A DNA stretch of 64,000 bases. Origin: a bacterium (GTDB taxonomy: Bacteria; Patescibacteriota; CPR2; UBA1875; JAJYID01). The stretch lies in the NCBI GenBank assembly GCA_021787535.1, contig JAJYLR010000002.1, forward strand, positions 24,556 through 88,555. Direction: 5' to 3'. The position numbers and the translations under genes were made by a program. The notes beneath the pieces are model-generated. The model made no database searches and had not been told where the DNA came from. It was given only the letters and a program-made list of their open reading frames with translations. Positions 1,145 through 16,975 of this stretch are shown piece after piece; position 1 is the first letter of the stretch, and each line of letters opens with the position of its first letter.

Positions 1145-2824
1145 TTGATTGATCATTGGAAATTGGAAATTGGTCATTTCCTTCGGTTGTGCTATCATTT
1201 AGCCATGGCAGATGATCTTGATATAGTTTCAAAAGCCAAGTTAGTTAATAGAAACTCTCTTGAGCAAAAGATAATGGATGAGGCAAACCGGCTCGATCTG
1301 CCGTATTTTGACTTGCGTGAAACGGCTCTATCCAAAGAAATCCTAGAAAACTTTGATTCGAAGGACTTTTTCGACTATGCGGTTATTCCAATAAAGGAAG
1401 AAAAAGGCACGCTCGTAATCGCTTCGCCAAATCCGAGATCTGATAAAGTAAACCAGTTTAAGAAAAAGTATGCCAAACCATTCCCAAAAATGACGGCGGG
1501 AATGATTTCCAACGAGAGTTTTGAAGATAATAAAGATCTTTTAAAAAGCATTGTCAGAGTTACTCCGCAAGAGGCAGCCGGCGAGATGGACGTTACGGCA
1601 ATGAAAGTTGGTGAAAAATCTTTTGAAGAATTCCAAAAGAATCTCGATCAAGCGCCGATCCAAAACCTTTTAAAAGTAGTGATAGTGGAGGGCTTTGCCC
1701 TAAATGCTTCAGATATTCACATAGAGCCGGCCGATGAGGAGGCAGCAATACGTTTCCGCATGGACGGCGTCTTGCACAAGGCGGGGGAACTCACAAAAGA
1801 AAAATATAAGTATCTCCTCTCGCAGGTGGAGCTCAGATCAGGACTGAAACTCAATGTCAACTATCCGCAAAACGGCCGTTTCAAAGTTAAGTTTGATGAT
1901 AAAAGCGAACTTGCGGTCAGAATCGAGGTTATGCCTTCACTCTACGGCTCTGATATCGTTATTCGTATTTTCAATGTTGAAGCTGATTTTTTGAATATCA
2001 ACGAGCTGGGCATTCGCGACATCCAGCTGCCAATCTTAGAGTCAGCTCTTATCCGCCCCCATGGCATGATCCTGGTTGTCGGACCTACCGGCGCCGGAAA
2101 AACCACGACTATTTACTCTATCTTAAACAAATTGAATGCACCGGAGATCAAACTTATCACTCTGGAAGATCCGATTGAGTATACTCTGCCCGGCGCGACA
2201 CAGTCGCAAATCAATGAGGGCGAGAACTTTGCCGGCCGGCTGAAAGCAGTGCTCCGGGAAGATCCGGACATCATCATGCTCGGCGAAATTCGCGACGCAG
2301 AAACAGCCAAGACGGCCCTGCAAGCAGCTATTACCGGACATCTTCTCATCACAACCTTGCATGCCAATGACGCGGTAACGGCCGTACCGAGAATAATCGG
2401 GCTTGTAGAAGATGCTTCATCCTTTCTTGACGCCGTCAATATTATTATTGCCCAGCGTCTTGTGCGAAAAATTTGCACGCACTGCCGCAAAGAATACAAA
2501 CCCTCAGATAACGAGATGGCGGAGATTAATAAAATCATTGATAATCTGCCCATCGAGCACAAGCCGAAAAAACCGCCTGAATTCTTTCATGGCACGGGCT
2601 GCGACAAATGCACAAACATCGGTTATAAAGGGCGAATCGGCATATACGAACTTTTGCAAGTCTCACCGGATTTTCAAAGAGCGGTGATAGAAAACAGCAC
2701 TCTGCACGAGTTAAAAGAAATTGCCGTGCGTGACGGAATGCTGACCATGGAACAGGACGGCTTCCTAAAAGCCATCGCGGGAACAGTCGATATTGTTGAA
2801 GTACTAAAAGTAATTAAAGAATGA
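1145..2824 (+). CDS. PilB/GspE-family type II secretion / type IV pilus assembly ATPase
   Basis: Walker A VVGPTGAGKTTT, Asp box, His box TTLHAND, tetracysteine zinc motif CTHC..CDKC, N-terminal GspE_N-like region. 559 aa is PilB-sized rather than VirB11-sized. True start may be Met at 1205. Confidence 0.85.
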   Translation: MIDHWKLEIGHFLRLCYHLAMADDLDIVSKAKLVNRNSLEQKIMDEANRLDLPYFDLRETALSKEILENFDSKDFFDYAVIPIKEEKGTLVIASPNPRSDKVNQFKKKYAKPFPKMTAGMISNESFEDNKDLLKSIVRVTPQEAAGEMDVTAMKVGEKSFEEFQKNLDQAPIQNLLKVVIVEGFALNASDIHIEPADEEAAIRFRMDGVLHKAGELTKEKYKYLLSQVELRSGLKLNVNYPQNGRFKVKFDDKSELAVRIEVMPSLYGSDIVIRIFNVEADFLNINELGIRDIQLPILESALIRPHGMILVVGPTGAGKTTTIYSILNKLNAPEIKLITLEDPIEYTLPGATQSQINEGENFAGRLKAVLREDPDIIMLGEIRDAETAKTALQAAITGHLLITTLHANDAVTAVPRIIGLVEDASSFLDAVNIIIAQRLVRKICTHCRKEYKPSDNEMAEINKIIDNLPIEHKPKKPPEFFHGTGCDKCTNIGYKGRIGIYELLQVSPDFQRAVIENSTLHELKEIAVRDGMLTMEQDGFLKAIAGTVDIVEVLKVIKE

Positions 2825-4469: not shown

Positions 4470-5555
4470 ATGGATATAAAAGAGTTAATAATAAAGAGAT
4501 TGAATACTGCGGGTGAGGTTCGGGTTGCTGATATTGTAGATGAAACATCTTTCTCCCGAAAATACATTCACCGTTTTTTTGATGAACTTCAGAAGGAAAA
4601 TAAGATAGCAAAAATTGGCACGACAAAGGCTGCCAGGTATGTATTTTCCAGTCATCAAAAGGTTTTTGAAGCTAAAAAAAATATTATAAAGATAGATCTT
4701 CTTTTAAAAAATAGAGGGCTCAAAGAAGATTTGGTTGAAGATAAAATCAAGGAAGATACGGGTATCTTTATCGGATTATCAAAAGAAGTGAAGGCAGCGG
4801 CAGACTTTGCTTTCTTGGAAATACTTAACAACGCTATTGAGCACTCAAAAAGTGAAAACATTCGCGTCACTATGTCGAGGATGGAAAACAAGCTTATTTT
4901 TGACATTTTTGATTGGGGAGTAGGCGTATTTGCCAGTATTAGAAAAAAGAAGGGGCTCCAAAATGATCTTGAAGCTATCCAAGATCTTTTAAAAGGAAAG
5001 GAAACAACTAACCCGGCAAGACACACGGGGCAAGGAATTTTTTTTACTGCGCGTATCGCTGATAGGTTTATTCTATATAGTTCGAAAAAAAAGCTGATTT
5101 TTGATAATAATATCGATGATGTTTTCTTGAAAGATTCTCCCGCCAGAAAGGGTACAAGGGCTCATTTTGAAGTTGCTCTGGATACAAAGAAGAAATCGGA
5201 AGAAATTTTTAGGCGTTATTCGGATCCTGACTCTTATGAATTCTCAAAAACCGAGGTAATGATCCATCTCTACAAAATGGATATTGGCTACATATCTCGT
5301 TCTCAGGCGAGAAGAGTAACGGCGGGGCTTGAAAAATTTAAATCGGTCGTGTTGGACTTTAGCAGGGTGGATACGATTGGACAAGGTTTTGCCGATGAAG
5401 TTTTTCGCGTATGGCAGAAAAGGAATCCGAAAACAAGGATCTCCTATAAAAATGCTGATGAAAATGTGCAGTTTATGATAGAGCGTGCAAAATCAGATTT
5501 AAAGAATCATTTTGATCGGCACCAAAAAAAACAAAACAAAGATATTGACAAATGA
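4470..5555 (+). CDS. wHTH - GHKL (RsbW/SpoIIAB-like HATPase_c) - STAS-like (DUF4325-type) fusion regulator
   Basis: N-terminal winged-helix-like region. GHKL N-box EILNNAIEHS, G1 DWGVG, G2 GQGIFF. C-terminal about 100 aa STAS-like segment (VVLDFSRVDTIGQGFADEVF). Confidence 0.6.
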   Translation: MDIKELIIKRLNTAGEVRVADIVDETSFSRKYIHRFFDELQKENKIAKIGTTKAARYVFSSHQKVFEAKKNIIKIDLLLKNRGLKEDLVEDKIKEDTGIFIGLSKEVKAAADFAFLEILNNAIEHSKSENIRVTMSRMENKLIFDIFDWGVGVFASIRKKKGLQNDLEAIQDLLKGKETTNPARHTGQGIFFTARIADRFILYSSKKKLIFDNNIDDVFLKDSPARKGTRAHFEVALDTKKKSEEIFRRYSDPDSYEFSKTEVMIHLYKMDIGYISRSQARRVTAGLEKFKSVVLDFSRVDTIGQGFADEVFRVWQKRNPKTRISYKNADENVQFMIERAKSDLKNHFDRHQKKQNKDIDK

Positions 5556-6483: not shown

Positions 6484-6505
6484 GTAACAGCATTACATCT
6501 CAAAA

Positions 6506-6536
6506 AAAGGCCCCATTCCGGGGCCTTTTGTTTTTT
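6506..6536 (+). terminator. rho-independent terminator
   Basis: GGCCCC-attcc-GGGGCC hairpin followed by TTTTGTTTTTT. Confidence 0.75.
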
Positions 6537-6589
6537 CATTTTAGTTTTTATACTTTACAAAAGAAACAGAAAATCATTATAATACGCTT

Positions 6590-7150
6590 ATGAACACTTT
6601 TGGCATGAAGCTTGGCTCATTAACACTTGCTTTTTTGTTTTCAATGTTTGTGGTAATCTGTTTCCCCAGCATTCGGCTTCAAAGTGTTGACGCAGCAACC
6701 CCTCTTTGCAACAACACACAAGATCCTAATTCTCCACCAGGTTGTTCTCAAACACCCGTTTGCCCGTCGGGTAAGTATTATATACCTAGTCAAGATCCCA
6801 AAAAACCTGATGAAGCTTGCGTTCCACCCCCTTGTGATAATCAAAACCCTGATTATGATAATCCAGACTGTGTCAAACAAACTTTTAAATCAGTTTCCGG
6901 CGGATTTGATTTCGGCAATGCCAACAGCTTCAAAGATGTCGGCAAGACCATAATAGACACAGCCGGCGGTATTATTCTGGGAGTCGCAGTTCTCAAAATA
7001 ATTTTCGGCGGCATAATGTATTCAACCGCAGCCGGCAATCCCCAGCGAATAGAAGAAGCAAAGAGTCATATCTACTATGCCCTTATCGGCGTAGCCCTGC
7101 TTGTAGGCATGAATATTTTACTCTTTTTAATCGGAGCCCAAACATACTAG
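6590..7150 (+). CDS. T4SS pilin-like protein (VirB2/TrbC-like), paralog 1, with Cys/Pro-rich N-terminal extension
   Basis: Signal peptide. C-terminal TM - MYSTAAGNPQRIEEAK - TM module shared with the two following ORFs. Confidence 0.55.
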   Translation: MNTFGMKLGSLTLAFLFSMFVVICFPSIRLQSVDAATPLCNNTQDPNSPPGCSQTPVCPSGKYYIPSQDPKKPDEACVPPPCDNQNPDYDNPDCVKQTFKSVSGGFDFGNANSFKDVGKTIIDTAGGIILGVAVLKIIFGGIMYSTAAGNPQRIEEAKSHIYYALIGVALLVGMNILLFLIGAQTY

Positions 7151-7157
7151 CTATCCC

Positions 7158-7517
7158 ATGAAAATGAAAGAGTTAGAAAGATACAAAAAAATATTTTCCA
7201 GAACAACATTTCTTGCCCCTGGGCTTTATGTTCCTAACTTTGGTGGTCCGCTTTTGGGTGGGTGCAATATGAATGATCCAAATACTGGTGATATGCAATG
7301 TATTGTCAACAATATCACAAGTTGGGTCCTTGGACTTGCCGGCCTTGTTATAGTGTTAATGATTGTTATAGCCGGTGTCAGATATATTGTTTCGGCTGGC
7401 AACCCAAATCAAACTGAAGGCGCAAAAAAAACTCTTGTCGGCGCTATAATAGGGCTTATAATAATTATATTGGCAAAGGTTTTGATATCAATCGTCGTGA
7501 AACTTATTACAGGATAA
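7158..7517 (+). CDS. T4SS pilin-like protein (VirB2/TrbC-like), paralog 2
   Basis: TM - RYIVSAGNPNQTEGAKKTL - TM. Same conserved core as neighbours. Confidence 0.6.
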   Translation: MKMKELERYKKIFSRTTFLAPGLYVPNFGGPLLGGCNMNDPNTGDMQCIVNNITSWVLGLAGLVIVLMIVIAGVRYIVSAGNPNQTEGAKKTLVGAIIGLIIIILAKVLISIVVKLITG

Positions 7518-7616
7518 TCTCAGCTTTTAGCAAATTGTTAAATTAATTAAACAAACTAAGTTAGCTCTTTCTCAATTAATGAATACTGAGAAGAGACATA
7601 AAGGAGGTATAAAAAA

Positions 7617-7949
7617 ATGAAAGCAAAAATTACAGCGGCATCGATGGCAATAAGCCAGTTTATTTTAGCTGCTAGTGTGCGAGCGCAATCAAACCCAAAT
7701 CCACTACCGCAACCGCACAGTTCAGATCTAGGGCCAATTCTGCAAAACGTGATAAACTGGATTTTGGGCATAGCCGGTTTGCTGGCAGTGCTTATGCTTG
7801 TTATCGGCGGTATCAGATATGTGATTTCGGCCGGCAATCCGTCACAGACAGAGGGAGCAAAGAAAACCATTATCTACTCACTTGTAGGCATAGTGGTCAT
7901 CATACTCGCCGTTGTCTTGGTCAATACGGTTATAGGCCTGTTTCACTAA
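7617..7949 (+). CDS. T4SS pilin-like protein (VirB2/TrbC-like), paralog 3
   Basis: Strong RBS AAAGGAGG. Signal peptide. TM - RYVISAGNPSQTEGAKKTI - TM. Confidence 0.6.
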   Translation: MKAKITAASMAISQFILAASVRAQSNPNPLPQPHSSDLGPILQNVINWILGIAGLLAVLMLVIGGIRYVISAGNPSQTEGAKKTIIYSLVGIVVIILAVVLVNTVIGLFH

Positions 7950-8001: not shown

Positions 8002-10017
8002 GTGTTATATATTTTTAATATGAGGGTGAGTTTATCTGAAAAAGCATTTATAAAGAGATTATCAAAAAAACGGACTGCTCAGGTTCTGCTTCCGTTTTTT
8101 TTGTTAGTAATTTTCCTGGGTGTTGCTATAACCCCGCATATTGCTTTTGCTTCCTGGTGGAATCCCATTGACTGGGTACAGGATTTTATCTCCGATTTGC
8201 TTATTGCCTTTTCTACTGCTCTTTATTTTCTAGGTTTTGGTTTAGTGAGGATAGGCGTCGATTTTACTACCTTCTTGATTAGCACGCCTGCCGTTTCTGA
8301 AAAATGGCAGCTGATGCGAAACTTTACGCTGACCATTTTCGGACTCTTCATAATCATTATCGCCGCCATGAATATCCTGAAAGTCAAGATAGAGGAGTGG
8401 GGAGTAAATAAAATGATCCCCAAGCTTGCTCTGGCTGCCTTTGTGGTCATGTTTTCAAAGTATGTCTGCATTACCATAGTGAACTTCTCTAACATTATCT
8501 CAAGTGTCGTGGCATCCTCAATGAACTTTAATCTCTTTCAGCCATTCAGCCAGTTGGGCGACATGTTTGCCAACTTCTGCCAGGACTGTGCCTCTGGACC
8601 AAAATTATATGCAGCTTGGCTCCTTTTATTGGTCTCTGTAATCGGCTTCATTTTTTTAGCTGCTTTATTCCTTATCTTGCTTATAAGGGCCCTGGTTCTG
8701 ATATTGCTGATTGTAGTCTCGCCACTTGCTTTCGCGCTTTATGTCTTACCCTGGACTAACAAGGTCTTCACTAAGTGGTGGGACATGTTCCTGAAGTGGA
8801 CTTTCTTCTATCCGATATGTCTGACAATTCTTGTCATAGGGGTATCTCTGTCTATGGACGCGCATAATACCGGTGGCAATCAGGTAAACAGTATTATGTC
8901 AGGGATTCTAAAATCGGTACCCTTGTTCGGTAACGATGCTGCGACTCAGATGGCTCCAGTCATGGCCCAATTCGCCTTTACTATGATAGCTTTTCTTACT
9001 ATACCTCTGGCAATGATTCTGCCGCTTTCACTTCTAGGGCAGGCAGGTAAAATGATCAACAATGCAATGAAAGGAGCCGGTAAGGCCGCGGGTGGGAAAG
9101 CATATAAGAGCAGTGTCATCCCCGGTGTCAGACGCAGTCCGAAGGCGTTGCTGCAAGCAGGAATGCGCAGAGGACTTCGGCCGTTTGGCTCCCGCGGCCC
9201 GAAACTCGGCTATGGCTATGACAAGATGCGAGATATGAATAGGGAGATGGTGAAAGAGATTAGTAAGACTCCTTTAAGCAAAGAGGAGAGGCGAAACTAC
9301 GCCAGAGGCCTTTTAGGCCGTGGTTCTCCTGCATTTAATAATCTATCAAACGAGAAACAGGCATGGATTAGGGATTTTGAAACAAAAGGCGGGGGCAGGA
9401 ACGAGATGATAGATTACCTTGCAGACAAAGGGGAAATAAATGCCGGGGTTATTGCGAATCCGCAAGTACAGCAGCGCTTGCAACAAACTGGAGACTGGAA
9501 TAAAGCCATAAGAGACGGTAAGCTTTTCCATGTTAATATGCACGATTCCCAAGGTGGAGAACTACAATATTACGGCAATGGAGATCCAATCATGATGCCA
9601 ACTAATCTAAATGAAGAAGGTCTCGGTCCAGTATCTGAAATGATTACCCCCAGCATTAATCAACTTCAGACCACCCAGCTAGCTGGACCGCAAGCCATAA
9701 CAGATGAAAACCTAGGACTTCTTGCCCGCGATCCTACCAAAGCCAAGTTTTTGTCAGATTATCGAGATTCTATTCATGATAGAATTGGAAATGTCCAAGA
9801 TGGTGATGTGCATCAACAAACAGCGGCTCAAATAAACGCTGAACTTCAAAGAAAGGAAAATGTCATCAACAACCTTCTTGGGCAAGCAGCACCGGGCGGA
9901 GGACAGGGACAAGGCGGTCAAGCGCAAGGACAACCTCAAGTGATAGTTCCTCATGTTGGACAAGGAAATCGCGATAACCCCCATCAGGATGATATCCCGC
10001 CAAACAGAAGATTATAA
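8002..10017 (+). CDS. VirB6/TrbL-like polytopic membrane protein with Gly/Gln-rich C-terminal tail
   Basis: At least 6 predicted TM helices, large hydrophilic C-terminal extension ending in GQGQGGQAQGQ low complexity. Position between pilins and VirB3/VirB4. Confidence 0.5.
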   Translation: MLYIFNMRVSLSEKAFIKRLSKKRTAQVLLPFFLLVIFLGVAITPHIAFASWWNPIDWVQDFISDLLIAFSTALYFLGFGLVRIGVDFTTFLISTPAVSEKWQLMRNFTLTIFGLFIIIIAAMNILKVKIEEWGVNKMIPKLALAAFVVMFSKYVCITIVNFSNIISSVVASSMNFNLFQPFSQLGDMFANFCQDCASGPKLYAAWLLLLVSVIGFIFLAALFLILLIRALVLILLIVVSPLAFALYVLPWTNKVFTKWWDMFLKWTFFYPICLTILVIGVSLSMDAHNTGGNQVNSIMSGILKSVPLFGNDAATQMAPVMAQFAFTMIAFLTIPLAMILPLSLLGQAGKMINNAMKGAGKAAGGKAYKSSVIPGVRRSPKALLQAGMRRGLRPFGSRGPKLGYGYDKMRDMNREMVKEISKTPLSKEERRNYARGLLGRGSPAFNNLSNEKQAWIRDFETKGGGRNEMIDYLADKGEINAGVIANPQVQQRLQQTGDWNKAIRDGKLFHVNMHDSQGGELQYYGNGDPIMMPTNLNEEGLGPVSEMITPSINQLQTTQLAGPQAITDENLGLLARDPTKAKFLSDYRDSIHDRIGNVQDGDVHQQTAAQINAELQRKENVINNLLGQAAPGGGQGQGGQAQGQPQVIVPHVGQGNRDNPHQDDIPPNRRL

Positions 10018-10048: not shown

Positions 10049-10711
10049 ATGCAGTACAAAATACCTCAAGAGTTTAACGTCGAAGACAAGATAATCGGTC
10101 CCTTTACTTTAAAGGGATTCGGTTTCATTTTCGCTGCAGCCGTCGTAGCTTTAGTATGCGTCGTTTCTCTGTCAAAGCATATCGGCTTCATACCTTCCGT
10201 TTTGATTGGCGCACTCTTGGGCTCGGTCTTTATAATCGTCGGATTTATCCCCTTCAACGGCCGGCCGATGTATACCTTCGCATCACCCTTTATAAACTTT
10301 TTGATAAAGCCGAGACAAAGGGTCTGGAGAAGAGAGGTTGAGACGGCTAAAAAACCTCAAACAGCTAATAAACCCGCAGCAACAACCGAAGCAAAACCGG
10401 GTAATACACCGGCAAAAGCAGATGTCTCATCAATTGCAGAAAAGATCGAAGACATCGCTCTCACAGTAGACACCGGCGGAGCATATGCCGGGAGCCAGGC
10501 GGAAACAGCAGGTGATATCCTAGAGAAAGGAAGTCCTACTGTAGAGCAGGCGCTTCAGAAAGCGCAGGCCGAGGCTAGCCGAAAGAAACAGCGGCCAGAA
10601 CCGGCCATATCAGAAATGGCTAGCGTAGATCCGGACAAAAAGTTCGGCTATGAGCGTCCAGATACTTCAAAATATAAAATTGATGAGGAGTTAAAAAAGA
10701 ACAGGCAATGA
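10049..10711 (+). CDS. VirB3/PrgI-like small membrane protein
   Basis: Two N-terminal TM helices immediately upstream of VirB4. Hydrophilic Ala/Lys/Glu-rich C-terminus. Confidence 0.45.
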   Translation: MQYKIPQEFNVEDKIIGPFTLKGFGFIFAAAVVALVCVVSLSKHIGFIPSVLIGALLGSVFIIVGFIPFNGRPMYTFASPFINFLIKPRQRVWRREVETAKKPQTANKPAATTEAKPGNTPAKADVSSIAEKIEDIALTVDTGGAYAGSQAETAGDILEKGSPTVEQALQKAQAEASRKKQRPEPAISEMASVDPDKKFGYERPDTSKYKIDEELKKNRQ

Positions 10712-11457
10712 ATCCTTTTAAGAAAAAACAAACTGGGGCAAACCCGCAGTCATTCGAAAGCACCCAGAAGTACCTGGCCATCGACCAGATTAAAGACGAT
10801 GTTTTGCTAATGAAAGACGGCTCTTTGAGAGGTGTGCTTATGGTTTCCAGCATTAATATGTCTCTGCGCTCGGAACAAGAACAGTCATCAATCATTTATG
10901 CCTATCAAAACGCTTTAAATTCTTTGGATTTTCCTGTACAAATCCTAGTGCAATCAAGAAAAGTTGATCTCACCTCCTACATGGCGATACTGGAAAAAGA
11001 ATATGAGAAGGAGGCGCCCGGACTTTTGAAAGATCAGATTCAAGAATACATTAGCTTCCTGCAGCAGATCTTGGAAAGCGTCAATGTCATGGACAAACGT
11101 TTTTTCGTGACAGTTCCATACTTTCCCAATGTCATTCAGGAAAGCTCAAAAGGCGTACTTTCTATAGTGGGTTTAGGGAAAAAGGCGAACCCCGTCTCCC
11201 AAAGCCAGCGCAACTACAGTATAAACCTTGACCAGTTAAACCAGAGGTTGGATATCGTTACCTCCCTTCTTTCCACTATAGAGCTAAAAGCATCGCGCCT
11301 GCCTACAGAGGCCCTTATAGAGCTTTTTTACGTCTGCTACAATCCTGAAACAGCCGGCCATGAGCATATAAAAAATCTGGACAGCTTTGGGGCAAAGTAC
11401 ATTACAAGGAGAGAATCGCTTGGAGGTAATACGATAGGTGGCGGGTATGCTGGATAA
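10708..11457 (+). CDS. VirB4/TrbE-family ATPase, N-terminal domain fragment (frame 1)
   Basis: Pattern YLAIDQIKDDVLLMKDGSLRGVLMVSSIN..SEQEQ resembles the VirB4 N-terminal region. Overlaps the next ORF by 20 nt in a different frame. Confidence 0.5.
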   Translation: MNPFKKKQTGANPQSFESTQKYLAIDQIKDDVLLMKDGSLRGVLMVSSINMSLRSEQEQSSIIYAYQNALNSLDFPVQILVQSRKVDLTSYMAILEKEYEKEAPGLLKDQIQEYISFLQQILESVNVMDKRFFVTVPYFPNVIQESSKGVLSIVGLGKKANPVSQSQRNYSINLDQLNQRLDIVTSLLSTIELKASRLPTEALIELFYVCYNPETAGHEHIKNLDSFGAKYITRRESLGGNTIGGGYAG

Positions 11458-13240
11458 GTTTCTGAAGAAGAGCCAGCCAACCCAGGAAGAGATCCTTGCC
11501 ACGCAAAAGGTGCAGGCCTTCCAGCGGGGAATAAGCACAATACGCGATCTTATAGCCCCTGCTTCATTTGCAAAAAACTTTAACTATCTGCAGATTGGGG
11601 AAACATATGCCAGAACTCTCTTCGTATATGAATATCCCAGATTTTTGTATTCCGGCTGGATATCTCCCATTATTAATATTGACATTCGACTTGATCTTTC
11701 AATATTTATCTATCCTGAAGATTCCCAGGATGTGGCCAAAAAACTGCGCGCCAAATCCACTCAAGTAGAATCCTCGATCAATATGGAGGCAGATAAAGGG
11801 CTGGCGAGAAATCCCACGCTTGAAGCGACTTATCAGGATATCGAGGAACTGAGAGACAAACTTCTCACCGGACAGTCCAAAATGTTCAAACAGGGTATGT
11901 ATATCACGGTTTACGAAGACTCGCTGGACGAGCTGAACGAATGCACAAAGATTTTGGAAAATATGCTTGGAACAGAAATGGTTTTTACCAAGCATGCTTC
12001 CCTTCAAATGGAGGAGGGTTTTAACTCCACGCTGCCAATGGGGCTGGATCAGCTCATGTACAATCGCAATATGGACACAGAGGCAATCTCCGTATCTTTT
12101 CCTTTTGTTTCATCGACTTTAACCAGTAACGAGGGTATTCTCTACGGAGCCAACAAGTCAAACAACAGTTTAATTATCTTCGACCGCTTTAAGCTGCAAA
12201 ACTACAATTCCGTTGTTCTGGCTTCCTCGGGAGCAGGAAAATCATATACAGTGAAGCTGGAGATATTAAGACAGCTTATGTTTGACGCGGATGTTATAGT
12301 GATTGACCCTGAAAAAGAGTTTGAAACTTTATGCCAAACTGTTGGCGGATCATATATAAATATCCATTTGAATTCAAAGGAGGTCGTAAATCCTTTCGAC
12401 CTACCCCAAAATCTGACCGATTATGATGACCAAAAAGATGCCCTCCGAAGCAATATCATTATTCTGACGGGGCTCCTTAGAGTTATGATGGGCAAACTCA
12501 CAGATGAGGAAAGCAATATCCTGGACAAGGCGCTGGTGGAAACATATGCTTCGAAGGGTATAACAGAAGATCCGTCAACCCATCACCTGACTCCGCCTAT
12601 CATGAGCGATTTAAAGAGTATCTTAGAAAGCATAAACGGAGGCGAGAGTATGGCCCTTCGCCTGGGCAAATTCACGGAAGGGACATTCTCGGGTCTCTTT
12701 AATGATTACACCAACATTTCGCTGGGCAATAGGATGGTCTGCTTTTCTATCCGAGACCTGGAAGAGGATTTGAGGCCGATTGCCATGTATTCCATACTGA
12801 ACTTCATCTGGAATAAGGTTAAAAGCGATAAGAAAAAAAGAATTCTGGTGGTTGATGAGGCCTGGACTATGATGAAATATGAAGACTCGGCCCAATTCCT
12901 TTACGCCATAGCAAAAAGAGGCAGAAAATATTACCTGGGCATGACTACTATCGGCCAGGACATCGGCGACTTTTTAAAGAGCGAGTACGGGAAACCTTTG
13001 ATTTCAAACGCTTCAATGGCTCTGCTTTTGAAGCAGCATCCTTCGCAGGTTGAGCTTATTAAAGAAGTATTCGACCTAACAGATTCTGAGAAAAACTATC
13101 TGCTGCAATGCGGAGTCGGTGAAGGGCTTTTTGTCGCCGGGCTAAACCATGCTCTAATACAAATCATCAGTTCGGAAAAAGAAGACTCAATCGTCACTAC
13201 TAATCCCGAGCAGTTAAAATCAATGCAGGGAGGAGCTTAA
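11438..13240 (+). CDS. VirB4/TrbE/CagE-family T4SS ATPase (C-terminal 600 aa, frame 2)
   Basis: Walker A LASSGAGKSYTVK, Walker B ILVVDEAWTMM, IAPASF..IGETYARTLFV segment typical of the family. Confidence 0.8.
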   Translation: MAGMLDKFLKKSQPTQEEILATQKVQAFQRGISTIRDLIAPASFAKNFNYLQIGETYARTLFVYEYPRFLYSGWISPIINIDIRLDLSIFIYPEDSQDVAKKLRAKSTQVESSINMEADKGLARNPTLEATYQDIEELRDKLLTGQSKMFKQGMYITVYEDSLDELNECTKILENMLGTEMVFTKHASLQMEEGFNSTLPMGLDQLMYNRNMDTEAISVSFPFVSSTLTSNEGILYGANKSNNSLIIFDRFKLQNYNSVVLASSGAGKSYTVKLEILRQLMFDADVIVIDPEKEFETLCQTVGGSYINIHLNSKEVVNPFDLPQNLTDYDDQKDALRSNIIILTGLLRVMMGKLTDEESNILDKALVETYASKGITEDPSTHHLTPPIMSDLKSILESINGGESMALRLGKFTEGTFSGLFNDYTNISLGNRMVCFSIRDLEEDLRPIAMYSILNFIWNKVKSDKKKRILVVDEAWTMMKYEDSAQFLYAIAKRGRKYYLGMTTIGQDIGDFLKSEYGKPLISNASMALLLKQHPSQVELIKEVFDLTDSEKNYLLQCGVGEGLFVAGLNHALIQIISSEKEDSIVTTNPEQLKSMQGGA

Positions 13241-13243
13241 GCA

Positions 13244-15124
13244 ATGGCTGCGGAGCTGCAAGAACCAGAGGAACTGGAAGAAGAGCCCCAAGAAGATGAA
13301 GGGCTTGGCGACACCGTCCGTGATGCGGATCAGGACTTTAAAAATCTAAACAAGTTCAGAAATAAGGGCAAGGGAGGAGAAGGCGCATCAGATGCCGCAA
13401 AGGGTGGAGCAAAAGCTGCCGGAAAAGAAGGAGCTGAACTGGCCGCTGAAGAAGAAGCAGCCCACATAGCCGAAAAAAGGGTGGCAGCTGAGGCAGCGGC
13501 AAGGTTAGGGGCGGAGGCCATCGGCGCGATTTCAACCGGGGTTGGAGTGGTGCTTGCTATTCCCGATCTTGTCCGGCTGGCAAAAAGCAAGTGGGGGAAG
13601 ATAACAATTGGTTCCTGCTGTGTTTGTGCGTGTTTGCCGTTTGCAGGAATATTGTTTGGCGGCATGATCTTGATTGCCGCCATTGGTGGTGGCCAAAGCG
13701 GAGACTCTAACAATCAATGCCCTTATATTCGCAGTGATGGAGAGGTGATCGAAGATTGGAGTTATGAGTTGGTAGATGGTAACAAAGAGAATTATAAAAC
13801 TGCCCTCCAAGATGCTGAAGCAATTACACATGTACCCGCTGCTATTCTGGCAGCTATTGATTATGAAAAGTACGCTAACGGTTATCAAGACGATAGAGAT
13901 AATCCACACAGAAGTCATGAACAAGCATTAATTGAGATAGGCAAAAAGGTACAGGAAACAAATGAATTGAGAGATAAATCGACAGGCAAGCTAGTTCTTG
14001 ATGAGAATGGAAAGCCCATAGATACCGTCTGGACTGATTCGGTTAGCAAAGATAACCCCAATATTGCCACTGGAATAGCTATCTTATCAAACTATCGATG
14101 CCCTGAGGTGGCAGAATCCTTGGCAGATCAAGCTAACCCACCCATAGCCGGGAATCAAAAAAATGAGTTCATAAATGAGTTTTGTTATTCATCCAAAGGG
14201 GGACCGGGTAACAGCACCTATACAGCAATGGACGATGATTGGATCATGCGAGATTTTGTTGACGATTCAGTAGCTGGTGAAATTCAAAAATTAAATCCTG
14301 TGCAGTCGGTTCCTTACTTAGGCACCTTTGTGGGAGGCGTTTTAAAGGGAGTGTCCACAGCTAAACAATTACTTGACTCATTGGCAAACGTGCCGGGAGC
14401 AGTTTGGTCTGCAAAATGCCACATAGGAGTAGGAAATTGCGAAACACCAGAGATTGGCGCGGCTACATGGCTAAAGGTATATCTTGATGGCGATGAACTG
14501 ATAAAGAGCCACACAGTAACAGAAAATGGGAAAAAGAAGACCATTCCAGGATGTCCTATCAAGAAATGGACGGGTGGCAGTAGCAACGGTTCTCCAAGTT
14601 CAGGTAGTCCAGGCCAATGCGTTAACGGCATTGCCCAAGTTCCCGAGTTTTTCCAATTTTCTCCACCCTGGGCATCTATACCTATAGATGAGTCGGGAGA
14701 CAACGTCCGAGCAGGCGGTTGCGGACTCACTTCACTGACAATGGTGTTAAACTGGTATGGCAAAGGTGTTACACCGGCCGATACTATTACTTGGCTGGAT
14801 GCCAATCCCCCTGTTTGCTATTCAGGTGGCTGGACCGGCTGCATGTATCCAAAAGTAGCACAACACTGGGGTATGAATGCCGGATTTAATACCATAGGAT
14901 GGGCAGAGGCAGAACAAAAACTTAGGAACTGCCAACCTGTTATTGTGGCAAATAATAGCGGCAGTTGGGCTTATACATGGCATTTAGTGGTTCTAACAGG
15001 AATTGACAGCAACAACAATGTCCATGTTAACGATCCGTTTCCTCGGGATATGAAAACTGGCCAATACACCGTGCCTCTTGATACAATAAAATCAACCATA
15101 GGAAATATCATCGATGTATACTGA
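13244..15124 (+). CDS. membrane-anchored cell-wall hydrolase with C39-like papain-fold cysteine peptidase domain (VirB1/PrgK functional analogue)
   Basis: Acidic N-terminus, TM helices, C-terminal GGCGLTSLTMVLNWYG (Cys nucleophile) and WHLVVLTGID..VHVNDP (His/Asp). Confidence 0.55.
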   Translation: MAAELQEPEELEEEPQEDEGLGDTVRDADQDFKNLNKFRNKGKGGEGASDAAKGGAKAAGKEGAELAAEEEAAHIAEKRVAAEAAARLGAEAIGAISTGVGVVLAIPDLVRLAKSKWGKITIGSCCVCACLPFAGILFGGMILIAAIGGGQSGDSNNQCPYIRSDGEVIEDWSYELVDGNKENYKTALQDAEAITHVPAAILAAIDYEKYANGYQDDRDNPHRSHEQALIEIGKKVQETNELRDKSTGKLVLDENGKPIDTVWTDSVSKDNPNIATGIAILSNYRCPEVAESLADQANPPIAGNQKNEFINEFCYSSKGGPGNSTYTAMDDDWIMRDFVDDSVAGEIQKLNPVQSVPYLGTFVGGVLKGVSTAKQLLDSLANVPGAVWSAKCHIGVGNCETPEIGAATWLKVYLDGDELIKSHTVTENGKKKTIPGCPIKKWTGGSSNGSPSSGSPGQCVNGIAQVPEFFQFSPPWASIPIDESGDNVRAGGCGLTSLTMVLNWYGKGVTPADTITWLDANPPVCYSGGWTGCMYPKVAQHWGMNAGFNTIGWAEAEQKLRNCQPVIVANNSGSWAYTWHLVVLTGIDSNNNVHVNDPFPRDMKTGQYTVPLDTIKSTIGNIIDVY

Positions 15125-15674
15125 TAGAAAAATTTTGCTTCTCGCCGGCCTGTCTGTTTTTATGATTCTGTTTTTAGTGTTTTCTATCATATTTTCAAGA
15201 GTAAAAAATCTGGAAATAACAACAAGTCCAAGCGGTGCGAGTTATAGCATTCAAGGCGATTCATCGGGTACAACACCTGTAAAACTCCGGCTCTCACCGG
15301 GCAAGCATATAATTAAAATAACAAAGGGTTCCTACAAAACGATCAATGCTAATATAAATATCCCCTTCTGGGGCTTTCAGAAAATACACTATGATTTGGA
15401 ATACAATGGGCCTAAAAAATCCGATACGCAAACCTCTCTCCAAGAAAGAATTGACACGCGTGAAAAATATAATCATGATTTTCCATTCGCAAAGTATCTA
15501 CCCTTTCATGGAAATAACTTTTACATGACGCCGCCCTCCAATGACGGCACGCTTAATATATATTACAGCCCAACCAATGAAGCGCAAGGAAAAGCTGAGG
15601 CCGAGACGTGGCTTCAGCAGCATCAAGTTAATACAGCTAATCTAAAGATCAATTGGCTTCCAGGTGTAGAATAG
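15114..15674 (+). CDS. PEGA domain membrane protein
   Basis: N-terminal TM plus ITTSPSGASYSIQGDSSGTTPVKLRLSPGKHIIKITKGSYK, a PEGA-like beta-sandwich motif. Confidence 0.45.
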   Translation: MYTDRKILLLAGLSVFMILFLVFSIIFSRVKNLEITTSPSGASYSIQGDSSGTTPVKLRLSPGKHIIKITKGSYKTINANINIPFWGFQKIHYDLEYNGPKKSDTQTSLQERIDTREKYNHDFPFAKYLPFHGNNFYMTPPSNDGTLNIYYSPTNEAQGKAEAETWLQQHQVNTANLKINWLPGVE

Positions 15675-15703
15675 TTATAATAAAAATATAAAGGAGAGTC
15701 TCA

Positions 15704-16975
15704 TTGTATTCACCAATTGAAAATAAAAAAGAAAAAGTGGAATTCCTAGTAGCATTTTTTATAACTTTTCTTTTTATTTTTATTCCATTGACAATAACAT
15801 TTGCTGGTAATACAAAAAGGTTTTTCTCTACCCCACCCGGTGCTTTAAATCTGGATCAATGTAATGGACCTTGGGCTGTAACGTTCAGCGATAAAACAGA
15901 TGATCCCAATGTTAAGAGTGACGCTGCAATAGAAAAAAACAAGAGAAAACTCGCTGATGCTATAAACGCCGAGATTGCCAAATTCCCTAAGTCTAAGTTT
16001 TTAAAGACAAACGGCGGACTAGATGATCCGGGTAAAGCTTTTGTTGATGCCAGTATCGAAAATAATATCAACCCTATACTTTTAGTGGCTATGGCTTACA
16101 CCAATTCGGATATGGCGAGTACGACGAATGCGGCCCTGAAATGCGGCAACCCATGGGGCCAGCAGCCCATAACCGGCAAACCAACCTGTCAGACTAATGA
16201 TGGTGGCCAAACCCTTTCATGGTATGAATATAACAAAGATCATCAGTATAATGAGGGCATGATTGGCGATGAGGCAAAGAGAGTTTTTCAAACATATCTG
16301 AACCAGACCGACTGGAACCCGCCACTTATCACTCTGGATGATTTCGTACAAAGATATGACGAGAAAAATCCTTGGAGAGAAATGGGCGTGCCAGATCAAA
16401 GTAAATCAATCGCAGACAACTATAAAACTGTTTACAATGACATATTAACATCAAAGAATGGGAAAGATACCCTTGTGTGCTCTCAGAGTGGAAATGGTGG
16501 GGGGGATTTAGCAAATGCCGACTCCCTGAGCGTCAAAGGCATAGAATGTGTTCTAGATGCAACAGGCCATGGCTACAATCTAAAGCCTTATGCTCAGGAT
16601 TTGTATAAAGCTGCTCATGATTTTCATGTTAACCCCCTTTATTCCCTTGCGCAATTTGATAAGGATAGTTCCCTAGGTACAGCAGGAGCCGGCCTCGACA
16701 ATAAAAATCCAGGAAATATAGGTTGCGACCAAGGATACACCACAGGAGCTGGTGTGCAATACAGCTGTGCTGACTTTGCCGTTTTTAATACCTTTGGTGA
16801 TGGAATGAGGGCTCACAACTGGTTAATCAGAACTGAATATCTAGATCAGGGACTTACCACAATTGAAGCCATTATCAACAAGTATGCCCCTCCTAGTGCA
16901 AATGACACCAACCAATATATTCAAGATGTGAAAGATTTTATGAGTAAATATGGGCCAATGTGTTCCGGCCAATAA
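15704..16975 (+). CDS. membrane-anchored glucosaminidase/muramidase-like peptidoglycan hydrolase (two repeats)
   Basis: N-terminal TM. Two segments with an L-L-h-A-x-A..NS..S pattern (NPILLVAMAYTNSDMAS; NPLYSLAQFDKDSSLG) reminiscent of the FlgJ-type glucosaminidase domain. Confidence 0.4.
   Translation: MYSPIENKKEKVEFLVAFFITFLFIFIPLTITFAGNTKRFFSTPPGALNLDQCNGPWAVTFSDKTDDPNVKSDAAIEKNKRKLADAINAEIAKFPKSKFLKTNGGLDDPGKAFVDASIENNINPILLVAMAYTNSDMASTTNAALKCGNPWGQQPITGKPTCQTNDGGQTLSWYEYNKDHQYNEGMIGDEAKRVFQTYLNQTDWNPPLITLDDFVQRYDEKNPWREMGVPDQSKSIADNYKTVYNDILTSKNGKDTLVCSQSGNGGGDLANADSLSVKGIECVLDATGHGYNLKPYAQDLYKAAHDFHVNPLYSLAQFDKDSSLGTAGAGLDNKNPGNIGCDQGYTTGAGVQYSCADFAVFNTFGDGMRAHNWLIRTEYLDQGLTTIEAIINKYAPPSANDTNQYIQDVKDFMSKYGPMCSGQ

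What the first reader, a model, noticed from the sequence alone, without database searches (positions are those of the whole stretch)
10708..13240. VirB4 ATPase split into two overlapping ORFs in different frames
ORF 10708-11457 (frame 1) carries a VirB4-like N-terminal segment. ORF 11438-13240 (frame 2) carries Walker A/B and the rest. The two overlap by 20 nt, and the first ORF's last about 10 codons (GGNTIGGGYAG) look like out-of-frame read-through. Total length 249 + 600 aa matches a full VirB4. This is either a genuine two-subunit VirB4, a +1 frameshift (assembly error or programmed), or early pseudogenisation of the T4SS.
Basis: seen in the sequence. Interest (0 to 1): 0.55.

Follow-up and report, generated by a model that had tools for sequence, protein, structure and literature searches.

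The report
Normal TrsD plus short VirB4 pair
The apparently "split" secretion ATPase is the normal, already published two-gene layout of the type IV secretion system in Patescibacteria: a small TrsD-like protein followed by a short VirB4 ATPase. It is not a frameshift, an assembly error or a decaying gene.

Summary
Both ORFs exist as described: 10708-11457 (249 aa) and 11438/11447-13240 (600/597 aa). ORF1 is a TrsD-like protein that resembles the first ~130-200 residues of full-length VirB4. ORF2 is a short VirB4 that starts where ORF1 homology ends and carries Walker A and B.

The split is neither an error nor recent:
- The junction DNA is identical in three further independent assemblies.
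- The best 120 database relatives of ORF1 are all 205-261 aa. Those of ORF2 are 569-629 aa, apart from one of 759 aa that is not a fusion.
- In 67 of 67 related genomes that carry both genes, they are separate ORFs. They sit in all three relative frames, from 14-nt overlaps to 509-nt spacers. Five spacers hold an inserted unrelated gene.
- The same PrgI - TrsD - short VirB4 order occurs in Staphylococcus pSK41 (TrsC-TrsD-TrsE) and other Firmicute plasmids. ORF2 aligns with TrsE from residue 1.

A 2025 paper (PMC12102498) already reports TrsD as the most abundant T4SS component of Patescibacteria, usually next to virB4. It notes remote homology to the VirB4 N-terminus and essentiality in Southlakia epibionticum.

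Verdict: ordinary and already known, so low interest. TrsD has no assigned function. The likely role, a detached VirB4 N-terminal module linking VirB3/PrgI to the ATPase, is inferred only.

The parts
10049..10711 (+). PrgI-family (VirB3-like) membrane protein gene. Its stop overlaps the ORF1 start by 4 nt (ATGA).
   Evidence: Pfam PrgI E 1.4e-6, 29.2 bits, above the cut-off of 27. A PrgI-like ORF lies immediately upstream of the ORF1 homologue in 68 of 77 related loci.
10708..11457 (+). TrsD-like gene (ORF1, 249 aa). A stand-alone protein homologous to the N-terminal segment of VirB4.
10762..11352 (+). Conserved folded core of ORF1 (residues 19-215, alpha/beta).
   Evidence: Alignment A1. In the AF2 model the core blocks reach pLDDT ~80-93, with a low-confidence loop at 143-164.
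11353..11457 (+). C-terminal tail of ORF1 (res 216-249), lying beyond the conserved fold. Residues ~216-236 are conserved only in the close clade and the last ~13 residues are variable. Its last codons carry the translation-initiation region of ORF2.
   Evidence: No conservation in A1 beyond the close clade. pLDDT is below 50 for residues 227-230 and 232-249, and ~57 for 211-220.
11436..11441 (+). SD-like AGGTGG, 5 nt (11442-11446) before ATG 11447. GGAGG at 11422-11426 lies 11 nt before the alternative GTG 11438.
   Evidence: Read directly from the sequence.
11447..13240 (+). Short-form VirB4 ATPase gene (ORF2, 597 aa from ATG 11447). The maximal ORF starts at GTG 11438.
   Evidence: NCBIfam conju_CD1110: 378 bits (cut-off 325), covering positions 177-728 of 752 only. 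Pfam P-loop_TraG, AAA_10 and CagE_TrbE_VirB. PDB 4ag5 VirB4 C-terminal domain, E 1e-43. Of the 120 best relatives, 119 are 569-629 aa. Aligns from residue 1 with pSK41 TrsE.
12224..12247 (+). Walker A motif (SSGAGKSY).
   Evidence: Sequence.
12848..12865 (+). Walker B motif (VVDEAW).
   Evidence: Sequence.
6590..7949 (+). Three T4SS pilin (VirB2-like) genes: 6590-7150, 7158-7517 and 7617-7949. They form the start of the T4SS operon.
   Evidence: Pfam T4SS_pilin E 1e-7, 1.3e-14 and 1.6e-16. A terminator-like site at 6505-6529 and a promoter-like site at 6554-6583 lie just upstream.
8002..10017 (+). Large protein, probable VirB6/TrbL-like channel component.
   Evidence: PF19590 TrbL_3 (weak) is recorded for the identical gene. 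No hit in my own Pfam scan.
13244..16975 (+). Downstream operon genes: C39-like peptidase (13244-15124), PEGA-domain protein (15114-15674) and glucosaminidase-domain protein (15704-16975). These are probable cell-wall-remodelling (VirB1-analogous) functions.
   Evidence: Pfam hits.

Best explanation
The locus holds two genuine, separately translated genes of a monoderm-type type IV secretion operon from a Patescibacteria (CPR) genome. The gene order is pilins - VirB6-like - PrgI/VirB3 - TrsD-like - short VirB4 - cell-wall hydrolases. ORF1 is a TrsD-family protein of about 215 folded residues that corresponds to the N-terminal sub-domain of full-length VirB4. ORF2 is a VirB4 that lacks exactly that sub-domain and begins with a short basic tail.

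The 11-nt overlap is ordinary operon packing and probably gives translational coupling. It is not a frameshift site.

Mechanism (inferred, not shown): TrsD supplies in trans the part of the VirB4 N-terminal domain that full-length VirB4 carries in cis. It probably bridges the membrane anchor PrgI/VirB3 and the hexameric ATPase body. I put about 0.9 on the two-gene arrangement and about 0.5 on this trans-complementation mechanism.
For: - Collinear, non-overlapping coverage of three full-length VirB4 models. ORF1 maps to 7-129, 93-218 and 18-136; ORF2 maps to 177-728, 280-891 and 239-728.
- ORF2 residue 31 aligns with residue 223 of full-length PrgJ (796 aa). ORF2 residue 254 aligns with TrwK residue 446. 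About 190-200 N-terminal residues are therefore missing from ORF2, close to the size of the ORF1 fold.
- The best 120 relatives of ORF1 are all 205-261 aa (38-67% identity). Of the best 120 of ORF2, 119 are 569-629 aa and the one 759-aa protein is not a fusion.
- At least 581 stretches in the one-genome-per-species collection encode a relative. In 67 of 67 loci with both genes they are separate ORFs, with relative frames 0/+1/+2 = 14/27/26 and spacing from -14 to +509 nt.
- Five of those spacers contain an inserted 23S_rRNA_IVP gene.
- The junction DNA is identical in an ENA assembly and two Logan assemblies from other runs.
- The same order occurs in pSK41 (TrsC/TrsD/TrsE), C. difficile BI1 and Pontibacillus plasmids. 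The last has an 11-nt overlap too.
- ORF2 aligns with TrsE from residue 1 to residue 1. The ORF1 family matches TrsD by hhalign at 87% probability, E 3.7e-6.
- Literature: PMC12102498 reports TrsD, with remote homology to the VirB4 N-terminal portion, as the most abundant T4SS component of Patescibacteria. 1,664 of 2,272 copies are associated with virB4, and the gene is essential in Ca. Southlakia epibionticum.
- The PrgI-TrsD pairing is kept even where VirB4 is not adjacent, consistent with a VirB3-TrsD sub-complex.
Against: - Nothing argues against the two-gene arrangement.
- For the mechanism there is no direct evidence of a physical TrsD-VirB4 or TrsD-PrgI interaction.
- The AF2 model of the concatenated ORF1+ORF2 chain was too poor to show docking (pLDDT 59, pTM 0.39, ORF2 part mostly below 50).
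- ORF1 scores far below the NCBIfam TrsD cut-off (29 vs 200 bits).
- The ORF1 profile does not detectably match the single PrgJ sequence or any PDB sequence.
- In Gracilibacteria-type genomes TrsD is encoded away from VirB4 (PMC12102498). TrsD could therefore have a role of its own.
Confidence: 0.88

Rival explanations
1. Assembly or sequencing error: a single-base indel near 11438-11457 artificially splits one ~850-aa VirB4 gene.
For: ORF2 is in the +1 frame relative to ORF1 with a short overlap, and the two parts together cover a full VirB4 profile.
Against: The junction sequence is identical in three further independent assemblies from different samples. Every relative is split, in all three frame relations and with spacers up to 509 nt. 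pSK41 and other finished plasmids have the same two genes.
Confidence: 0.01
2. Programmed +1 ribosomal frameshift in the overlap produces a fused full-length VirB4 in addition to, or instead of, the two products.
For: A +1 relationship and a 20-nt window that is open in both frames.
Against: There is no recognisable slippery or stop-stimulated motif in 11438-11457 (read). The junction RNA shows no structure (z -0.13). Among relatives the frame relation is 0, +1 or +2 and the genes are often separated by stops and spacers, so no frameshift site is conserved. ORF2 has its own SD-like element and an ATG that matches the N-terminus of TrsE.
Confidence: 0.02
3. Early pseudogenisation of the T4SS: VirB4 is broken and the system is decaying.
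For: Only the superficial appearance of a split gene.
Against: Both ORFs are intact and highly conserved (ORF2 up to 85% identity, ORF1 up to 67% identity to relatives). Walker A and B are intact. The whole operon is intact and tightly packed. Homologous genes, including the TrsD homologue, are reported as essential in Southlakia epibionticum (PMC12102498).
Confidence: 0.01
4. The two-gene arrangement is real, but TrsD does not act as a detached VirB4 sub-domain. It would be an independent accessory factor, for example a chaperone-like or adaptor protein acting with PrgI/VirB3 or with substrates, that merely shares ancestry with the VirB4 N-terminus.
Against: ORF1 and ORF2 are exactly complementary along full-length VirB4 profiles. 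The fission point is conserved from Patescibacteria to pSK41. The genes are adjacent in 67 of 80 loci. Gene distance says little about protein interaction.
Confidence: 0.3

Closest known systems
Patescibacteria T4SS TrsD-VirB4 pair (Quinonero-Coronel et al. 2025, Microb Genom, PMC12102498; Southlakia epibionticum T4SS SEML1_0006-0019, Wang et al. 2023, PMC10633639)
   Same: Same lineage and same gene set (VirB2-like pilins, VirB6, PrgI/VirB3, TrsD, VirB4). TrsD is usually next to virB4, except in Gracilibacteria, which I saw independently. Remote homology of TrsD to the VirB4 N-terminus is already stated in the paper.
   Different: Nothing substantive: this window is one more instance. The paper does not say in the text I read that the Patescibacteria VirB4 lacks the region TrsD resembles. 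That complementarity is shown here.
TrsC-TrsD-TrsE of Staphylococcus plasmids pSK41/pGO1 (MPF_FATA, pGO1 subclass)
   Same: Same order: VirB3-like, a ~227-aa TrsD, then a short VirB4 (672 aa), followed later by a cell-wall hydrolase. ORF2 aligns with TrsE from residue 1 at 26% identity, E 8e-48. The ORF1 family matches TrsD by hhalign at 87% probability.
   Different: Very divergent: ORF1 vs TrsD is 22% identical over 125 aa and far below the NCBIfam TrsD cut-off. pSK41 has a 14-nt spacer instead of an overlap. pSK41 is a conjugative plasmid with relaxase and coupling protein, whereas the window looks chromosomal, with pilin genes in the operon.
Full-length VirB4 ATPases (PrgJ of pCF10, 796 aa; TrwK of R388, 823 aa; CD1110 family)
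   Same: ORF1 plus ORF2 together cover the full-length profiles collinearly. The ORF1 model superposes on TrwK. ORF2 aligns with PrgJ residues 223-772 and with the solved VirB4 C-terminal domain 4ag5.
   Different: Here the first ~190-220 residues are a separate polypeptide. In pCF10, PrgI is followed directly by the full-length VirB4 with no TrsD gene.
VirB3-VirB4 fusion proteins (e.g. Campylobacter plasmids, cited in PMC12102498)
   Same: They show that the VirB3 / VirB4-N-terminus / VirB4-body module can be partitioned differently into polypeptides while keeping the same gene order.
   Different: They go the opposite way (fusion rather than fission). None was found in Patescibacteria, according to PMC12102498.

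Membership tests
TrsD/TraD family conjugative transfer protein (NCBIfam NF041427; Pfam PF26593 TraC-like) | Sequence match to the family model at the curated threshold | tested here: inconclusive
   NF041427: E 6.4e-7 but 29.4 bits against a cut-off of 200, so homologous but outside the narrow NCBIfam subfamily. PF26593 is recorded for the identical protein P0001 in precomputed tables. My Pfam scan of ORF1 returned only a weak PF11130 TraC_F_IV hit and no PF26593. hhalign of the ORF1 family vs pSK41 TrsD: 87% probability, E 3.7e-6.
TrsD/TraD family conjugative transfer protein | Small (~200-250 aa) stand-alone protein encoded between a VirB3-like gene and a short VirB4 gene | tested here: met
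   Window order is PrgI 10049-10711, ORF1 10708-11457, VirB4 11447-13240. The same order occurs in pSK41 and in 67 related loci.
TrsD/TraD family conjugative transfer protein | Remote homology or fold similarity to the N-terminal portion of VirB4 | tested here: met
   [not shown]
VirB4 ATPase (CD1110-type, monoderm MPF_FATA) | Family model score above the curated cut-off; P-loop domain with Walker A and B | tested here: met
   NF045971: 378.2 bits against a cut-off of 325. Pfam P-loop_TraG 83.5 bits. Walker A at 12224-12247 and Walker B at 12848-12865. PDB 4ag5, E 1e-43.
VirB4 ATPase (full-length form) | Single polypeptide covering the whole N-terminal domain (model positions 1 to ~176) | tested here: not met
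   ORF2 covers only positions 177-728 of 752 and starts at about PrgJ residue 193-223. The missing part is ORF1.
Programmed +1 frameshift gene | Conserved shift site, fixed frame relation among orthologues, stimulatory element | tested here: not met
   Frame relations among 67 loci are 14/27/26, with spacers up to 509 nt. No RNA structure at the junction (z -0.13). No recognisable shift motif.
Pseudogene / assembly frameshift | Intact single-ORF orthologues in relatives; junction not reproducible | tested here: not met
   No fused orthologue in the lists or loci examined (120 + 120 proteins, 67 loci). The junction is identical in 3 other assemblies.
TrsD-VirB4 functional complex | Physical association of TrsD with VirB4 and/or VirB3 | not testable with these tools
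   The concatenated AF2 model was too poor to judge. No experimental data were found in the papers I searched and read.

The most novel reading that the evidence does not exclude
TrsD is the physically detached N-terminal sub-domain of VirB4 and forms a stable unit with PrgI/VirB3 rather than with the ATPase body. The PrgI-TrsD gene pair is the more strongly conserved one and persists where VirB4 is encoded elsewhere. The short VirB4 hexamer would then dock reversibly onto a membrane-bound VirB3-TrsD platform. That would give monoderm and CPR T4SSs a regulatable motor-attachment step that full-length VirB4 systems lack.
Probability: 0.3. Interest if true: 0.4.

Novelty: already known. Interest (0 to 1): 0.1.

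Why it matters
It matters mostly for annotation. Automated or visual scans will keep flagging this locus as a frameshifted VirB4. It should instead be annotated as a TrsD-family protein plus a short-form VirB4, and T4SS-bearing Patescibacteria genomes should not be scored as carrying a pseudogenised system. The only open biological point is the function of TrsD. It is reported as essential in the one genetically tractable Patescibacterium, but its function is unassigned. The exact complementarity with short VirB4 gives a concrete, testable hypothesis.

Tried and rejected
1. Frameshift or assembly error: rejected by identical junctions in independent assemblies and by the 67-locus junction survey.
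2. Apparent in-frame fusion in L072: an artefact of my first script. The locus has an in-frame stop ('PIQLS*KHNKNM').
3. The single long ORF2 relative, P0236 (759 aa): not a fusion. It has no ORF1-like part.
4. Sequence search of the ORF1 family profile against PDB: no hit even at E <= 10.
5. hhalign of the ORF1 family against the full-length PrgJ sequence: no match.
6. Docking test.
   - A mixed alignment with many ORF2 homologues was misaligned by MAFFT.
   - The accepted alignment gave a poor model (pLDDT 59.4, pTM 0.39, ORF2 part mostly below 50). Nothing can be said about ORF1-ORF2 packing.
7. RNA structure at the junction: none.
8. The pELF 'TraD' paper turned out to concern a VirD4-like protein and is irrelevant.
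9. Guglielmini 2014 (PMC4027160), cited for the TrsD-VirB4 homology, does not name TrsD in its main text.
Full report
**Observation.** The window contains ORF 10708..11457 (+, 249 aa) and ORF 11438..13240 (+, 600 aa from GTG). ORF2 is in the +1 frame relative to ORF1 and they overlap by 20 nt. Frame translations show that the ORF2 frame is closed by TAG at 11435-11437, immediately before GTG 11438. An ATG follows at 11447 and the ORF1 stop TAA is at 11455-11457.

**What the two ORFs are.**
- ORF1 matches the N-terminal parts of three full-length VirB4 models:
  - Mycoplasma ICE VirB4 NF045975, positions 93-218 of 894, E 7e-9.
  - TIGR00929, positions 18-136 of 792.
  - CD1110 family NF045971, positions 7-129 of 752.
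- ORF1 also matches the TrsD/TraD family NF041427 (E 6e-7).
- ORF2 matches the same three models at 280-891, 239-728 and 177-728. For CD1110 it scores 378 bits, above the curated cut-off of 325.
- ORF2 also has Pfam P-loop_TraG, AAA_10 and CagE_TrbE_VirB hits and matches the solved VirB4 C-terminal domain 4ag5 at E 1e-43.
- Walker A (SSGAGKSY, 12224-12247) and Walker B (VVDEAW, 12848-12865) are intact.
- The two ORFs therefore cover a full-length VirB4 collinearly and without overlap.
- Against real proteins, ORF2 residue 31 aligns with PrgJ residue 223 and ORF2 residue 254 with TrwK residue 446. ORF2 thus lacks about 190-220 N-terminal residues, about the size of the folded part of ORF1 (residues 19-215).

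**Is the split an error, a frameshift or decay? No.**
1. The identical 249-aa protein and an identical junction sequence occur in an ENA assembly and two Logan assemblies of other sequencing runs.
2. ORF1 has 1,048 database relatives, and the best 120 (38-67% identity) are all 205-261 aa. Of the best 120 relatives of ORF2 (52-85% identity), 119 are 569-629 aa. The single 759-aa protein has extensions but no ORF1-like part.
3. A scan of one genome per GTDB species found at least 581 stretches encoding a relative, and every named record among the 80 loci kept is a Patescibacteria lineage.
4. In all 67 of those 80 loci that contain both genes, the two are separate ORFs.
   - The relative frame is 0, +1 or +2 in 14, 27 and 26 loci.
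   - Spacing runs from a 14-nt overlap to a 509-nt spacer. That breaks down as 11 overlaps, 34 gaps of 0-30 nt, 14 of 31-150 nt and 8 longer.
   - One apparent in-frame fusion (L072) has an in-frame stop.
   - Five of the long spacers contain an inserted gene for a 23S-rRNA-IVP (four-helix-bundle) protein, so the two cistrons can be pulled apart.
5. The junction RNA has no unusual structure (z -0.13) and I see no recognisable shift motif.
6. The C-terminal tail of ORF1 (GGNTIGGGYAG) lies in a region that varies in length and sequence in every relative and is predicted to be disordered. It is simply the part of ORF1 that overlaps the initiation region of ORF2. It is not read-through of a VirB4 frame.
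7. The likely ORF2 start is ATG 11447. This matches the 597-aa product called in public annotation, it is preceded by AGGTGG with 5 nt of spacing, and it aligns with the first residue of TrsE.
8. The real overlap is therefore 11 nt. The same operon has another 11-nt overlap (15114-15124) and a 4-nt ATGA overlap between PrgI and ORF1. This is ordinary tight operon packing.

**Context.**
- The pair sits in a typical Patescibacteria T4SS operon:
  - a terminator-like site (6505-6529) and a promoter-like site (6554-6583);
  - three VirB2-like pilin genes (6590-7949);
  - a 671-aa TrbL_3/VirB6-like protein (8002-10017);
  - PrgI/VirB3 (10049-10711), then TrsD-like ORF1 and the short VirB4;
  - a C39-like peptidase, a PEGA protein and a glucosaminidase-domain protein.
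- A PrgI-like ORF lies immediately upstream of the ORF1 homologue in 68 of 77 related loci.
- In 13 loci I found no VirB4-like sequence within the fetched flanks, up to 4 kb. Most are labelled Peregrinibacteria, Gracilibacteria, Peribacteria or Altimarinota, and four of them are cut short downstream.
- In nine of those 13 loci the PrgI-TrsD pair is nevertheless kept. An example is L046, from a complete chromosome.

**Comparison with what is known.**
- Staphylococcus plasmid pSK41 has the same TrsC (VirB3-like) - TrsD (227 aa) - TrsE (672 aa, short VirB4) order.
  - ORF2 aligns with TrsE from residue 1 to residue 1 (26% identity, E 8e-48), so the fission point is shared.
  - ORF1 matches TrsD weakly by BLASTP (E 1e-4). 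The ORF1 family matches it by hhalign at 87% probability.
- tblastn of ORF1 against plasmids finds 97 records, mostly Bacillus, Clostridium and Geobacillus. The two I inspected (C. difficile BI1 and Pontibacillus) show PrgI - TrsD-like - short VirB4. The Pontibacillus pair also has an 11-nt overlap.
- pCF10, in contrast, has PrgI followed directly by a full-length 796-aa VirB4.
- Quinonero-Coronel et al. 2025 (PMC12102498) already report most of this:
  - They found 2,272 homologues, 1,664 of them associated with virB4, with Gracilibacteria as the exception.
  - TrsD has no assigned function, and its homologue in Ca. Southlakia epibionticum ML1 is listed as essential.
- The finding is therefore an instance of an already described arrangement.

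**How it most likely works.**
- Shown: there are two conserved cistrons, their coverage of VirB4 is complementary, ORF1 has a VirB4-N-terminus-like fold, and the VirB3-TrsD-VirB4 order is conserved.
- Inferred: TrsD provides in trans the N-terminal sub-domain that full-length VirB4 carries in cis. From published R388 structures (my own knowledge, not checked here), VirB3 binds the VirB4 N-terminal domain. TrsD would therefore link PrgI/VirB3 to the ATPase body.
- The overlap probably couples translation of the two genes.
- I could not test the interaction. The only accepted concatenated alignment gave a poor AF2 model (pLDDT 59, pTM 0.39).

**Verdict.** Novelty is 'already known' and interest is low (0.1).

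Noticed in passing
L011:4633-5098, L040:4627-5114, L048:4618-5069, L057:4624-5046, L073:4681-5191: In five related Patescibacteria genomes, a ~130-aa gene for a 23S rRNA-intervening-sequence protein (PF05635, four-helix bundle; E ~1e-35 for the two scanned) is inserted exactly between the TrsD-like and VirB4 genes. Whether these are independent insertions or a shared ancestral one was not determined.
   Followed up: partly
L046:3483-7693 (also L026, L034, L036, L037, L049, L059, L060, L065, L071, L077, L079, L080): In these 13 loci, most labelled Gracilibacteria, Peregrinibacteria, Peribacteria or Altimarinota, no VirB4-like sequence lies within the fetched flanks (up to 4 kb). A PrgI-like gene is still directly upstream of the TrsD-like gene in nine of them. 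In L046, an unknown 159-aa ORF, RecG (opposite strand) and a T4SS pilin gene follow. This agrees with the Gracilibacteria exception noted in PMC12102498.
   Followed up: partly
[not shown]
   Followed up: no
window 10708-10730 and 11447-11475; P0133, P0142, P0143; L081:26584-26625: Both ORF1 and ORF2, their homologues and pSK41 TrsE begin with a similar short basic motif (M..F[KL]KK.: MNPFKKKQ, MLDKFLKK, MFFKKKKE, MIMAFLKKKK). It could be a shared membrane- or VirB3-binding tail, or just compositional bias.
   Followed up: no
L024, L027, L035, L070, L042; L085:3414-4382: Some TrsD-like genes are much longer (about 280-420 aa; 322 aa in C. difficile BI1) than the usual 205-260 aa. This implies C-terminal extensions of unknown nature.
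   Followed up: no
window 6505-6583: A strong terminator-like hairpin (10 bp, followed by a T-run) is followed directly by an 11/12 sigma-70-like promoter match just upstream of the first pilin gene. This is probably the start of the T4SS operon, which then runs with overlaps or short gaps to about 17508.
   Followed up: partly
window 1145-2824 and 4470-5555: Upstream of the T4SS operon lie a T2SSE/PilB-type secretion ATPase (E 4.5e-102) and a histidine-kinase-like ATPase with a STAS-like DUF4325 domain. Their relation to the T4SS was not examined.
   Followed up: no
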